64,000 nucleotides of DNA. Origin: the human T2T-CHM13v2.0 reference genome, Homo sapiens. Where the stretch lies: NCBI RefSeq assembly GCF_009914755.1, contig NC_060927.1. One strand, 5' to 3'. Shown piece after piece: positions 32,431 through 46,421 of this stretch (its first letter is position 1; the number at the start of each line of letters is the position of its first letter). The position numbers and the translations under genes were made by a program. The notes below the pieces were generated by a model. That model saw nothing but the letters and a program-made list of their open reading frames with translations. It was not told the origin of the DNA and did not search any database.

Positions 32431-34029
32431 ATACAAGCAAACAAAATCCACTGCACATCAAAAAGTTAATTCATCCTGATCAACTAAAGTAGGCTTTATT
32501 CCTGGGATGCAAGTTTGGTTCAACATATGCAAATCAATAATTCACCACATAAACAAAATTAAAAACAAAAATCATATGATCATCTCAATTGACACAGAAA
32601 AAGCATTTGATAAAATCTAACATTCCTTCATGATAATAACTCACAACAAACTAGGCATCAAAGGAACATACCTCAAAATAATAAAAGCCATCTATGACAA
32701 ACCCATAGCCAACATCATACTGAATGGGTAAAAGTTGCAAGCATTCCCCCTAAGAACTGGAACAAAACAAAGATGCACACATGGATGAAATTGGAAATCA
32801 TCATTCTCAGTAAACTATCGCAAGAACAAAAAACCAAACACCGCATATTCTCACTCATAGGTGGGAATTGAACAATGAGAACACATGGACACAGGAAAGG
32901 GAACATCACACTCTGGGGACTGTTGTGGGGTGGGGAGAGGGGGAAGGGATAGCTTTAGGAGATATACCTAATGCTAAATGATGAGTTAATGGGTGCAGCA
33001 CACCAGCATAGCACATGTATACATATGTAACTAACCTGCACATTGTGCACATGTACCCTAAAACTTAAAGTATAATAATAATAAAATTAAAAAAAACAAA
33101 GATGCACACTTTTATCATTCCTGTTCAACACAGCATTGGGAGTCCTAGCCAGAGTAATCAGGCAAGAGAAAGAAACAAAAGGCATCCAAATAGGAAAAAA
33201 GGAAGTTGAATTATCTCTCTTCACTGATAATATGACTCCACACCTAGAAAACCCTTAAGACTCTGTCAAAAGGCTCTTAGATCTGATAAACAACTTTAGT
33301 AAACTTTAAACAACTTTAGTAAAGTTTCAGGATACAAAATCAATGTACAAAATCAGTGGCATCTTTATATACCATGTTATATCTTTATAACATTGAAGCT
33401 GATAGCCAAATCAAGAACATAATTATATTTACAATAGCCACAAAAAACTAAAATACCTGGGATTTTAGTTTTTACCAAAAAGGTAAAAGATCTCTACAGG
33501 AAGAACTACAAAACACTGCTGAAAGAAATTAGAGACAACACAAACAAATAGAAAAACATTCCATTCTCAGATATTGGAAGAATCAATATTGTTAAAATGT
33601 CCATATTTCCAAAAGATATTTACAAATCCAACACTATTCCTATCAAACTGCCAACATCATTTTTCACATAATTAGAAAACACTATTCAAAAATTTATATG
33701 AAGATCCCCCAAAAATAAAGCAGTCCTAAGCAAAAAGAACAAATCTAGAGGCATCACATTACCCAACTTCAAACTATACCACAAGCCTACAGCAACCAAA
33801 ACAGCATGGTACTGGTACAAAACTACACACATAGACCAACGGAACAGAATAGAGAACCCAGAAATAAAGCTACATACCTACAACCAACTGATCTTTGGCA
33901 AAGTTGACAAAAATCAGCAATGGGGAAAGGACTTCCGATACAATAAATGGTGCTGTTATAACTGGCTAACCATATGCAGAAGAATGAAACTGGACCCCAG
34001 AGCTTTACAATACACAAAAATTAACTGGA
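32431..34029 (+). mobile_element. L1PB/old-L1PA ORF2 fragment, interrupted by a young L1 and cut off at its 3' end
   Basis: RT and C-terminal ORF2 sequence (tttattcctgggatgcaag; aaacagcatggtactggtac). Ends abruptly at aaaattaactgga. Confidence 0.85.
32781..33092 (+). mobile_element. 5'-truncated young L1 (L1PA3-like, ~310 bp)
   Basis: L1PA 3' UTR plus tail, flanked by a perfect 17-bp TSD AAAACAAAGATGCACAC (32764-32780 and 33093-33109). Confidence 0.93.
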
Positions 34030-34737
34030 TAGAATGGCGATCATTAAAAAGTGAGGAAACAACAGGTGCTGGAGAGGATGTGGAGAAATAGGAAGACTTT
34101 TACACTGTTGGTGGGACTGTAAACTAGTTCAACCATTGTGGAAGTCTGTGTGGCAATTCCTCAGGGATCTAGAACTAGAAATACCATTTGACCCAGCCAT
34201 CCCATTACTGAGTATATACCCAAAGGATTATAAATCATGCTGCTATAAAGACACATGCACACGTATGTTTACTGCGGCACTATTCACAATAGCAAAGACT
34301 TGGAACCAACCCAAATGTCCAACAGTGATAGACTGGATTAAGAGAATGTGGCACATATACACCATGGAATACTATGCAGCCATAAAAAATGATGAGTTCA
34401 TGTCCTTTGTAGGGATACGGATGAAGCTGGAAACCATCATTCTCAGCAAACTATCACAAGGACAAAAAACCAAACACTGCATGTTCTCACTCATAGGTGG
34501 GAATTGAACAATGAAAACACATGGACACAGGAAGGGAAACATCACACACCGGGGACTGTTGTGGGGTGGGGGGAGGGGGGAGGGATAGCCTTAGGAGATA
34601 TACCTAATGCTAAATGACAAGTTAATGGGTGCAGCACACCAACATGGCACATGTATACATACATAACATACCTGCACATTGTGCACATGTACCCTAAAAC
34701 TTAAAGTATAATAATAATAAAATTTTTTAAAAAAAAA
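34030..34737 (+). mobile_element. 5'-truncated L1PA4-like element
   Basis: ORF2 C-terminal peptide (ORF 34136-34507), L1PA 3' UTR and A tail. No TSD found. Confidence 0.9.
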
Positions 34738-39728: not shown

Positions 39729-42255
39729 CTGAAAGGAGAAGGGGGTTCAGTAGGAACAATTTCAGTTTCCCCTTTGCTAAGCATTCCCAAAATGCCCATC
39801 TCTGATGTCCCTGCCTCTCCATAAAACCACCCAGTACACCAGGCCACAAAGACAGACATGTAAACGAAGACGATGTCACCTTTCATGTCTGTGACTGGAG
39901 ATGCTGAGACCACAGGTGCCCAGGCTAGAGTATCCATTTACTGAAAAACCCCCACTTGACCCCTGAGGGCTTGCATTGTCTAACAAGGTCATGCCTATTA
40001 TTCATTATTATTTATCTTTTTCCTGTGTCCTACAGTGAAAGTTCTAGAGAGCCTCCAGAACACAGGAGAGGAAGAGTTGTTTATCTAAACACATAGGAGA
40101 ATAAGAACAGGGGAAGATTTAGAGCCTCAAGGCTTTGGGAAGGAGTGGTGAAAAAGGGAGTTGGAATATTATAGACCAAATACTAAGTGAGGTGAACTTT
40201 TCAGGGTCCTAGGGCATTTTGAATTTCCTGTTGCCTATAATAGTTTTATCACCTCCCCACACATATACATTCTATTGTCATACAGTGGTTATTAGCAGCC
40301 TTAAGCAATGTAGTAGAGGAATCAGTCTCTTTATGAAAATTTAGGTGCCAGAAGTGCTACAGATCAGAATTTGTTGTCCTTTATGGAGGTAACACAAGGC
40401 TCAATCTTCATATTACCCACTCCTCCAGTGGGGTCTGGGCTGCATTCCCTAATAAAAATTATTTATATTTCCATAGGGAGAAAAACACACATTCTCAGAA
40501 GGTGACCTAATGAGAGACTTCGAATGGCCTCCACCAATCCAAGGTCAGCTCAGGAAGGGGACGGAGCCTTCAGGACCTGCTCCACATTGCTGTGGAGCTC
40601 CTCCCTCTCCTCCCTCTACACATCCTCATTCTCACCAAGATTTCCTTAAGTTTTTCGTAAAATGTCTTTCACGTATCTACTCTACTTCACCTTCCTGAGA
40701 GCAGTTATATCAGACTCTCATCACTCATGCCTGGCTTCATACAGTCTCCCTAACTGCCTTCTCTGATTCTGCCATCTCTGTACTGGCAGTTGTCTCACCA
40801 GTTTTATCACCCTGTTCTTATCACATTCCCACTCACTTCTGAAAACTTTCTCTCCACTGCCCACTACATGACTCTCACCCCCCACCCTGCCTTTGTGCTC
40901 CTTCTAACTTCTGGCTGATATTCTCATCCAATACCCCTTCCTACCACTCCCTCATACAAATTATCTGCTGGAGTCAGGATGGCCCCTCACTGGCCCCAGC
41001 CCTGCACTGGGTGCCTTCCAGCCTCTGGTCTTTGTCCACAAGCCCTACTCTCGGCTTGGTGTGACCTCCATAGTTACTCAGGACACAGTTTACTAATCAT
41101 CACCCATCAGTCACTGAGGACATCAGTAAGATTTAATGATAGTTTATATTGGGCTGACAGGGAAAACATCTTGAAACAGCAAATCTGGTTGGTAAAGACT
41201 GTTCAAACGCAGGTCTCCCCATTCTTGTCCTCTGCATTTGGACAAAAATCAAGCTCTAGGAATGTTATTAATCATCACTACTTAATTTCATCATGTCATT
41301 TTATCACTATTTTTCAGACTACTGAGTCTTATTAAACTTATACTTTGAATATTCCTAGAATTTGCACAAGAAAAGATAAAATATTTTCTCAAACTTCTGA
41401 AGTACTGTACATTTTATTAGTTGGGCAGGTAGGGAAAAGCCCCCAATAAAAGATCAAGTTATAATTTAGGTTGTCTTCTCACTGATTCTACCAATGTTTT
41501 CCCTGCCGAGAGAGGATGCGGCAGAGCTGACCTCCTGTGTCACTGCTGCTGGGGTCAAGGCTGTGCCCTATACACACTATTCACACATAGTGTGTGAACC
41601 CACACACAGGATACATCCTTGTACAGTCTGCATGGTGCATTCATTCATCCCAATCATCTGAAAAGAAGCATTTGGCCTCTCTAGCCCATGTTTCATGATG
41701 CCCTGGCAGGGCCGTCCCACACTGCACACATCACACTTCTGAGACATGTGTCTGAGCATTTCCCTTCCTCCTCAGAGGAGCCCCATCTTGGCTGCGGTGT
41801 TTCTGAGGCAGAGCCCCACAGCTTTACCAGAACAGCCCAATTCAGAGCAGAACCTCTGAGGACAGGGGGTGGAGGACAGCAGGACCTTTCTGCTCCTGAC
41901 TTTCCAGGGAGAGCCTACTGGAGCTGGATTTCCCCGTGGAGGGACTGGAGGAGGTGCTGGCTCTGGGGACAGACAAAGTGCACAAGGTTTTCTTTTTGTT
42001 TGTTTTAATTATACTTTAAGTTATAGGGTACATGTGAACAACGTGCAGGTTTGTTACATATGTATACATGTGCCATGTTGGTGTGCTGCACCAATTAACT
42101 GGTCATTTACATTAGGTATATCTCCTAATGCTATCCGTCCCCCCTCTCCCCACCCCACGACCGACCCCAGTGTGTGATATTCCTCTTCCTGTGACCAGGT
42201 GTTCTCATTGTTCAATTCCCACCTATGAGTGAGAACATGCAGTGTTTGGTTTTTT

Positions 42256-43100
42256 TTTTTGTTTGTTTGGTTTTTTTTTAGTGCCATATTGTCTTTATTG
42301 TGGTGGTCTGGAATCCAACCTGCGATGTCTCCCAGGTTATGCCTGTAATGGAATGATCATCCTCAGAAACTGAGTCAAAGATTGGGAAGGCTACCTCTGA
42401 TCATTTCTCGATGCAGTAAGTGAAGGTGATTCAAGATGAAGCTAGGAATTAAATTCCTCTTTCTTCTTATCCTGCACTTTCAGCTTCTTCTCCATGCAAA
42501 GCTGTCTTTAGGGGCCCAGTGCATAGAAGGCCACATAAGAGAGTTCACACAGGCCCCGGCACTGGATGAGGGTTCTCAGGTCAAGACAGGCAACAGATGC
42601 GGATAAGTCCATATTGGGGCAGGTGGATGGACGACCACTAAAGAGGGGTGAGTCAGTACCAAATGGCTGGGAATGAGTGGTTCACAGTGGGTCTCATTCC
42701 CTCCATGCGTCCTTTGCACACCATCGTGGGCTCCATGAGAACGCAAAGGAGCCTTTTGCACTCCCCAGGTCCGTCCTCCGTCCTTCCCTTGCTGTTGTCA
42801 TGGTGTCCTCTTTTTTTTTCTTTATTTTTATTATTATACTTTAAGTTTTAGGGTACATGTGCACATTGTGCAGGTTAGTTACATATGTATACATGTGCCA
42901 TGCTGGTGCGCTGCACCCATTAACTCGTCATCTAGCATTAGGTATACCTCCCAATGCTATCCCTCCCCCCTCCCCCCACCTCACAACAGTCCCCAGAGTG
43001 TGATGTTCCCCTTCCTGTGTCCATGTGATCTCACTGTTCAATTCCCACCTATGAGTGAGAATATGTGGTGTTTGGTTTTTTGTTCTTGCGATAGTTTACT
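42256..43100 (-). mobile_element. 5'-truncated L1PA2-like element (42810-43100) with a ~530-bp 3' transduction (42280-42809) and second poly(A)
   Basis: 17-bp TSD GCAGTGTTTGGTTTTTT at 42239-42255 and 43101-43117. Two A tails. AATAAA at 42294-42299. L1PA2-type diagnostics (gagatcacatgg, gctagatgac, cagcgcaccagc). Confidence 0.9.
42280..42345 (-). mobile_element. Tigger1 terminal fragment inside the transduced segment
   Basis: Minus strand TA|CAGGCATAACCTGGGAGACATCGCAGGTTGGATTCCAGACCACCACAATAAAG matches the recalled Tigger1 terminus. Confidence 0.75.
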
Positions 43101-44427
43101 GCAGTGTTTGGTTTTTTGTCCCTGCAATAGTTTGCTGAGAATGATAGTTTCAAGCTTCATCCATGTCCCTACAAAGGACATGAACTCATCATTTTTTATG
43201 GCTGCATAGTATTCCATGGTGTATATGTGCCACATTCTCTTAATCCAGTCTATCATTGATGGACATTTGGGTTGGTTCCAAGTCTTTGCTATTGTGAATA
43301 GTGCTGCAATAAACATAAGTGTGCATGTGTCTTTATAGCAGCATGATTTATAATCCTTTGGGTATACACCCAGTAATGGGATGGCTGGGTCAAATGGTAT
43401 TTCTAGTTCTAGATCCTTGAGGAATTGCCACACTATCTTCCACAATGGTTGAACCAGTTTACAGTCCCACCAACAGTGTAAAAGTCTTCCTATTTCTCCA
43501 CATCCTCTCCAGCACCTGTTGTTTCCTCACTTTTTAATGATTGCCATTCTAACTGGTGTGAGATGGTATCTCATTGTGGTTTTGATTTGCATTTCTCTGA
43601 TGGCCAGTGATGATGAGCATTTTTTCATGTGTCTGTTGGCTGCATAAATGTCTTCTTTTGAGAAGTATCTGTTCATATCCTTGGCCCACTTTTTGATGGG
43701 GTTGTTTTTTTCTTGTAAATTTGTTTGATTTCATTGTAGATTCTGGATATTAGCCCTTTGTCAGATGAGTAGATTGCAAAAATTTTCTCCCATTCTGTAG
43801 TTTGCCTGTTCACTCTGATGGTAGTTTCTTTTGCTGTGCAGAAGCTCTTTAGTTTAATTAGATCCCATTTGTCAATTTTGGCTTCTGTTGCCATTGCTTT
43901 TGGTGTTTTAGACATGAAGTCCTTACCCATGCCTATGTCCTGAATGGTATTGCCTAGGTTTTCTACTAGGGTTTTTATGGTTTTAGGTCTAACATTTAAG
44001 TCTTTAATCCATCTTGAAATAATTTTTGTATAAGGTGTAAGGAAGGGATCCAGTTTCAGCTTTCTACACATGGCTAGCCAGTTTTCCCAGCACCATTTAT
44101 TAAATAGGGAATCCTTTCCCCATTTCTTGTTTTTGTCAGGTTTGTCAAAGATCAGATGTTTGTAGATGTGTGGCATTTCTGAGGGCTCTGTTCTTTTCCA
44201 TTGGTCTACATCTCTGTTTTGGTACCAGTACCATGCTGTTTTGGTTACTATAGCATTGTAGTATTGTTTGAAGTCAGGTAGCATGATGCCTCCAGCTTTG
44301 TTCTTTTGGCTTAGTATTGTCTTGGCAATGCGGGCTCTTTTTTGGTTCCATATGAACTTTAGTTTTTTCCAATTCTGTGAAGAAAGTCATTGGTAGCTTG
44401 AAGGGGATGGCACGAATCTATAAATTA

Positions 44428-46421
<1,994 letters not shown>

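What the first reader, a model, noticed from the sequence alone, without database searches (positions are those of the whole stretch)
42239..43117. L1 3'-transduction nested inside another L1's 3' end, terminated by a Tigger1-derived poly(A) signal
Seen on the minus strand: TSD, ~290-bp L1PA2-like 3' end, A tail, ~530 bp of non-L1 DNA, AATAAA (42294-42299), 14 nt, second A tail, TSD (17 bp, perfect). The host L1PA5 3' UTR resumes exactly after the TSD. The AATAAA lies in a Tigger1 terminus that is cut off at the cleavage site. Known: 3' transduction by read-through of the weak L1 poly(A) signal. Inference: the 530 bp barcodes a source L1PA2 elsewhere in the genome. It also adds a previously used poly(A) site, in sense orientation, to an NBPF intron. 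The young L1 landed at nearly the homologous position of the older L1, which makes the event easy to mis-annotate as one element.
Basis: partly seen in the sequence, partly recalled or inferred. Interest (0 to 1): 0.7.

Follow-up and report, generated by a model that had tools for sequence, protein, structure and literature searches.

The report
Orphaned L1 transduction, source element lost
A young jumping gene (L1) sits inside an older one on chromosome 3 and carries about 530 bases copied from chromosome 11, where no L1 stands today; it is likely the fossil offspring of an L1 that was later lost, which is a known kind of event with no sign of function.

Summary
The structure is real. On the minus strand lie a 16-18 nt target-site duplication (TSD), about 270 nt of a young L1 3' end, an A tail, a 531-nt non-L1 tag, AATAAA plus 14 nt, a second tail and the TSD again. 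The older host L1 resumes in exact register. The tag has one other copy in the genome, chr11:125,344,728-125,345,259 (14 substitutions in 532 nt). There it runs on into a Tigger-type transposon, so chr11 is the donor. No L1 lies within 29 kb upstream or 10 kb downstream of the donor, and the junction resembles an L1 endonuclease site. Best reading (about 0.8): a 'parentless' 3' transduction from an L1 that once sat at this site, probably in a PKNOX2 intron, and is absent from this genome. Divergence suggests an age before the human-chimpanzee split. Rival (about 0.1): template switching from an intronic RNA, with no L1 ever at chr11. No siblings were found. A role for the poly(A) site in pseudogene NBPF21P is unsupported, and the 'homologous position' is probably coincidence. 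Known kind, low interest; ape assemblies would decide it.

The parts
43100..43117 (-). 5' copy of the target-site duplication (16-18 nt; last 2 nt shared with the young L1)
42833..43099 (-). 5'-truncated young L1 3' end (L1PA2-like, label recalled); GAG at the diagnostic trinucleotide; 6-8 differences in 277 nt to 29 nearest copies
42811..42832 (-). first A-rich tail, that of the inferred source L1; its last AA is shared with the donor
42280..42810 (-). transduced tag, copy of chr11:125,344,730-125,345,256 (+); 14 substitutions in 532 aligned nt and one 4-nt indel
42280..42345 (-). terminal 66 nt of a Tigger-type DNA transposon, read antisense, cut at the cleavage site; preceded by TA
42294..42299 (-). 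AATAAA, the first such hexamer after the junction in the donor (tag offset 510); cleavage 14-17 nt downstream
42256..42279 (-). second A-rich tail
42238..42255 (-). 3' copy of the target-site duplication
43118..46354 (-). older host L1, 5' part (ORF2 region with RVT_1 match; L1PA5-like, label recalled)
41993..42237 (-). older host L1, 3' end and tail, resuming in register after the insert

Best explanation
The insert is a young L1 3' end joined to 531 nt copied from chr11, flanked by a target-site duplication inside an older L1, and it likely arose as one 3' transduction from a source L1 that once stood at the chr11 site and has since been lost from this lineage. Steps. (1) Inferred: a full-length L1PA2-age element inserted at chr11:125,344,728 on the + strand, probably in a 5' intron of PKNOX2. 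(2) Inferred from the anatomy: its transcript read through the L1 end and was cleaved 14-17 nt after the first downstream AATAAA, which lies in the antisense end of a Tigger-type transposon. (3) Shown by TSD, tails and register: the RNA was reverse-transcribed into an A-run of the older L1 on chr3, stopped about 270 nt into the L1 and was joined by a 2-nt microhomology. (4) Inferred: the chr3 copy was kept while the source allele was never fixed, by drift or by selection against a full-length, same-sense intronic L1. Age is likely before the human-chimpanzee split.
For: Single donor, 97% identical. Donor continuous on both sides, so copying ran chr11 to chr3. The tag begins directly after an L1 end and A tail and stops after the first AATAAA in the donor. 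The donor junction reads GT|AAGAGG; T|AA plus two purines occurs at 16 of 1972 local positions, and it resembles the TSD starts of 8 related copies (14 of 29 had their 5' end in view, 10 gave a candidate, 2 of these probably chance). L1 part and tag look the same age: 6 differences in 277 nt from the majority of 29 relatives, 3 of them uncommon, against about 1.3% per lineage for the tag. Parentless transductions are described and common in dogs: 17 of 18 (PMC7980453, passages) and 24 of 27 (PMC13141329, passages).
Against: The source L1 itself was not seen: no L1 match in 39.5 kb round the donor and no sibling. The endonuclease-like junction is modest evidence: 16 of 81 local A-run starts look as good, so it favours this over a template switch that uses AA only about fivefold at most. 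I could not show that the donor site is an unbroken ancestral sequence: an old repeat reaches the junction from the left, but its extension across it was not significant (37 of 300 random controls and 12 of 300 shuffles as good). No ape or population genomes could be read.
Confidence: 0.8

Rival explanations
1. Reverse-order chimera. No L1 ever stood at chr11. L1 machinery began on an intronic RNA of the chr11 gene polyadenylated at the transposon AATAAA, then switched (or the RNAs were ligated) to the poly(A) tail of an L1 RNA.
For: The donor has no L1. It lies on the same strand as, and about 69 kb upstream of, Meis_PKNOX_N exons, so host transcription could supply the RNA. The junction has a 2-nt AA microhomology. 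Template switching and RNA ligation are described for L1 chimeras (PMC11838501, passages).
Against: In the passages seen, chimeras carry L1 at the 3' end and the foreign RNA at the 5' end, the opposite order. The junction has the T before the A-run that endonuclease cutting predicts and switching does not. A lost parent is an ordinary outcome.
Confidence: 0.1
2. Same transduction, but the source L1 became fixed and was later removed, by recombination between its TSDs or by a deletion ending at the tag.
For: Cannot be told from a never-fixed allele in one genome; continuity of the donor site across the junction was inconclusive.
Against: No L1 remnant at the junction or in 39.5 kb; the 2 kb upstream is single-copy. 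Exact removal of a 6-kb L1 is rare (recalled).
Confidence: 0.07
3. Two separate insertions: an L1-less retrocopy of the tag first, then a young L1 landing exactly at its 5' edge.
For: The donor lacks an L1, and the tag's start resembles an endonuclease site.
Against: A second insertion should duplicate the tag's first bases upstream of the young L1; only the host TSD is there. Both parts have similar ages.
Confidence: 0.02

Closest known systems
L1 3' transduction (catalogued in CHM13 by Hoyt et al., 10.1101/2021.07.12.451456, passages; polymorphic cases in PMC9311842, passages)
   Same: TSD, L1 3' end, tail, unique flank, downstream poly(A) signal, second tail; interchromosomal donor; tag length within the reported 7-997 nt.
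   Different: No source element beside the donor; nested in an older same-strand L1; likely fixed and old. Whether Hoyt's lower-confidence table (S13) lists it could not be seen.
'Parentless' L1 3' transductions in dogs (PMC7980453; PMC13141329; passages)
   Same: The tag maps to a site with no adjacent L1, read as a source that is not fixed.
   Different: The dog cases are young and still segregating; this one is 2.6% diverged, so its parent is more likely extinct in humans than segregating.
L1 chimeras formed by template switching or RNA ligation (PMC11838501, passages)
   Same: One TSD pair around L1 and non-L1 sequence in the same orientation.
   Different: Those have L1 at the 3' end and the foreign RNA 5'; here the order is reversed and the L1 keeps its own tail.
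Retro-DNAs, DNA-transposon pieces moved by L1 machinery (PMC11195612, passages)
   Same: A Tigger fragment ends in a poly(A) signal, tail and long TSD.
   Different: Only 66 nt of transposon ride at the end of a longer tag behind an L1; that study filtered out transductions.

Membership tests
L1 3' transduction | One TSD pair enclosing L1 and tag | tested here: met
   18-nt duplication; host in register in 9 of 10 relatives
L1 3' transduction | L1 3' end and A tail directly before the tag, second tail after it | tested here: met
L1 3' transduction | Poly(A) signal 10-30 nt before the second tail | tested here: met
   AATAAA 14-17 nt before the cut; first hexamer in the donor after the junction
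L1 3' transduction | Tag has a donor copy elsewhere that continues beyond the cut and lacks the tail | tested here: met
   chr11 donor
L1 3' transduction | Source L1 immediately upstream of the donor in this genome | tested here: not met
   No L1 match in 29 kb upstream or 10 kb downstream. It is therefore filed under the parentless class, not as a parent-verified event.
Parentless L1 3' transduction | Donor lacks an adjacent L1 | tested here: met
Parentless L1 3' transduction | Donor junction is an empty endonuclease site | tested here: inconclusive
   GT|AAGAGG fits, but 16 of 81 A-run starts do as well; continuity across the junction not shown
Parentless L1 3' transduction | Source allele found in another individual or species | not testable with these tools
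   No ape or population genomes are held
L1PA2 subfamily (young element) | Match to the subfamily consensus and its diagnostic positions | tested here: inconclusive
   GAG, not ACA/ACG, at the recalled diagnostic site excludes L1HS; 97-98% to nearest copies. L1PA2 versus L1PA3 rests on recall.
Tigger-type (pogo/CENP-B) DNA transposon as source of the signal | DDE_1 and CENP-B N-terminal transposase remnants, TA at the terminus | tested here: met
   the name Tigger1 is recalled
U6-type L1 chimera (template switch) | Foreign RNA 5', L1 3' | tested here: not met
   Order is reversed (description)

The most novel reading that the evidence does not exclude
No L1 ever stood at chr11. The insert is a reverse-order chimera in which L1 reverse transcriptase started on a prematurely polyadenylated PKNOX2 intron RNA and jumped onto an L1 RNA's poly(A) tail. 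Some 'parentless transductions' would then be false barcodes, pointing to source elements that never existed.
Probability: 0.1. Interest if true: 0.6.

Novelty: new member of a known kind. Interest (0 to 1): 0.25.

Why it matters
As read here it is a fossil record of an L1 that was active in an ape ancestor and is gone from this human genome. It names the exact base to check in complete ape assemblies, a small test of how often active L1 alleles were purged or sorted between lineages. It is also an annotation trap: pipelines that need a parent beside the donor will miss it, and repeat annotation may merge the two L1s. It would matter more if the rival held, because transduction tags are widely used to count source elements. 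Nothing here suggests an effect on NBPF21P or on health.

Tried and rejected
Sibling search: none; only the self and chr11 matches; the search skips common words, so very short siblings could be missed. Paralog empty-site test: the best NBPF paralog (chr1:147.70 Mb, about 70-73%) lacks even the host L1; three other paralogous regions matched only the upstream flank and were not inspected, so paralogs cannot date the inner insert. Old repeat spanning the donor junction: no significant result. Homology-driven joining: rejected as main cause, since the join uses 2 nt and passes the 18-nt homology by about 20 nt, and the second 36-nt unit is of the young type, not a duplication of the host; same-strand A-run targets are abundant in the host (27 sense versus 5 antisense T|A-rich motifs in 3237 nt). 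Copying from chr3 to chr11: rejected, the donor is continuous and has no tail. A distant L1 spliced to the tag: rejected, the junction is in the A tail and no L1 lies in 29 kb upstream. Ten literature searches showed no listing that describes this locus. Szak 2003, Pickeral 2000 and the journal version of Hoyt 2022 were not held, and Hoyt's supplementary tables could not be seen and may list it.

Full report
Observation. The minus strand shows, in order: host L1, an 18-nt stretch at 43117-43100, a young L1 3' end (43099 to about 42833), an A tail (42832-42811), 531 nt of non-L1 sequence (42810-42280) with AATAAA at 42299-42294 and 14 nt after it, a second tail (42279-42256), the same 18 nt (42255-42238), and the rest of the host. 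The last two bases of the duplication also start the young L1, so the TSD is 16-18 nt. The motif is ordinary L1 sequence and recurs in two other L1s of the window, so I tested register instead: host sequence left and right of the insert overlaps by exactly 18 nt in 9 of 10 related copies; the tenth was uninformative.

Donor. The tag has one other copy, chr11:125,344,728-125,345,259 on the + strand (2 of 2 candidates once the transposon end was left out). The other 38 matches cover only the last 50-70 nt. The copies differ by 14 substitutions in 532 nt and one 4-nt indel. At chr11 the sequence continues without a tail into a Tigger-type transposon with DDE_1 and CENP-B_N remnants on the opposite strand, so chr11 is the origin. 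The AATAAA used is the first after the junction; a second one 17 nt later is where cleavage fell. Meis_PKNOX_N exons lie about 69 and 82 kb downstream on the same strand; the name PKNOX2 and the intronic position are recalled, not read from an annotation.

The missing parent. No part of the L1 3' 3.5 kb matches anywhere in 39.5 kb round the donor, 29 kb of it upstream, and the 2 kb upstream is single-copy. The junction reads GT|AAGAGG. T|AA plus two purines occurs at 16 of 1972 local positions, but at 16 of 81 A-run starts. It resembles the TSD starts of 8 related young copies (14 of 29 had a visible 5' end, 10 gave candidates, 2 of them probably chance). This fits an empty insertion site but is modest evidence. 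An old repeat reaches the junction from the left; its continuation across it was not significant (37 of 300 random and 12 of 300 shuffled controls as good).

Age. Tag divergence is 2.6% (95% interval 1.4-4.4%). With recalled genome-wide figures of 1.2%, 1.6% and 3.1% for chimpanzee, gorilla and orangutan, the chance of 14 or more changes is 0.006, 0.05 and 0.76; counting two adjacent pairs as single events gives 0.03, 0.15 and 0.90. Reverse-transcription errors and older divergence between the two chr11 haplotypes would inflate the figure. The young L1 has GAG at the recalled diagnostic site, differs from its 29 nearest fetched copies at 6-8 of 277 positions, and from their majority at 6, of which 3 are shared by 6 or fewer. 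These copies were chosen for similarity, so this is a rough check, but both parts look the same age. The host's 3' end is 92-93% identical to its nearest copies. The event likely predates the human-chimpanzee split.

Mechanism. Shown: one TPRT-type insertion (TSD, tails, 5' truncation, 2-nt microhomology), a chr11 origin for the tag, and cleavage after a transposon-derived AATAAA. Inferred: a source L1 at the chr11 site, read-through of its own signal, and later loss of that allele. I put this at 0.8. Such parentless events are in print for dogs: 17 of 18 (PMC7980453, passages) and only 3 of 27 near an L1 (PMC13141329, passages). Rivals: a reverse-order template switch from an intronic RNA (0.1; described chimeras have the opposite order, PMC11838501, passages); fixation and later exact removal of the source (0.07); two separate insertions (0.02; no second TSD).

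The young L1's 5' end lies 36 nt upstream, in L1 coordinates, of the point where the host was cut. Of 29 related copies that reach this point, 1 ends within 40 nt further and 2 within 80 nt, and A-run targets are common on the host's sense strand (27 versus 5). The join ignored the 18-nt homology. I treat it as probable coincidence; stalling near homology is not excluded. The insert is sense to NBPF21P, an annotated pseudogene of the family's ancestral group (PMC13028154, passages), and lies downstream of all three Olduvai-like exons found at about 51.0, 48.8 and 48.1 kb. No function is indicated. The best chr1 paralog lacks even the host L1.

Comparison and novelty. It works like, and meets the structural tests of, an L1 3' transduction; the parent-beside-donor test is not met, so it belongs to the parentless class. 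Transductions in CHM13 were catalogued (10.1101/2021.07.12.451456, passages: 183 highest-confidence L1 3' events); its tables were not visible and may list this one. PMC9311842, PMC11195612 and PMC3024322 were seen as passages. Ten searches gave no listing for this locus. Verdict: real, a new member of a known kind, interest 0.25.

Noticed in passing
window 46403-46390 and 41992-41979 (-): The host L1 has its own 14-nt TSD with one mismatch at a CpG. About 20-35 nt that do not look like L1 sit between the 5' TSD and the start of L1 homology (about 46389-46355); origin unknown.
   Followed up: partly
window 42279-42256 (-): The second tail is interrupted by a short stretch that resembles the start of the TSD; possibly slippage or tail decay.
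   Followed up: no
window 32808-33084 and 34444-34720 (+): Two further L1 3' ends lie 1.6 kb apart on the + strand, 94% and 91% identical to the young insert; their arrangement was not examined.
   Followed up: no
L012:200-3200 (chr11:125,345,200-125,348,200): The donor transposon appears near full length, with its transposase frame interrupted by what look like an Alu and an LTR-type insert (translations; labels recalled).
   Followed up: partly
L014 (chr1:147,698,594-147,702,575): An NBPF paralog keeps the empty site of the host L1: both flanks align about 30 nt apart, so the host inserted after the chr3 copy arose.
   Followed up: partly
L028 (chr6:4,197,757-4,198,032, -): This young L1 shares two minority variants with the insert in its first 70 nt; it may belong to the same sub-lineage.
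   Followed up: no
L042 (chr10:127,527,598): Another young L1 is truncated only about 11 nt from the same point as the insert.
   Followed up: no
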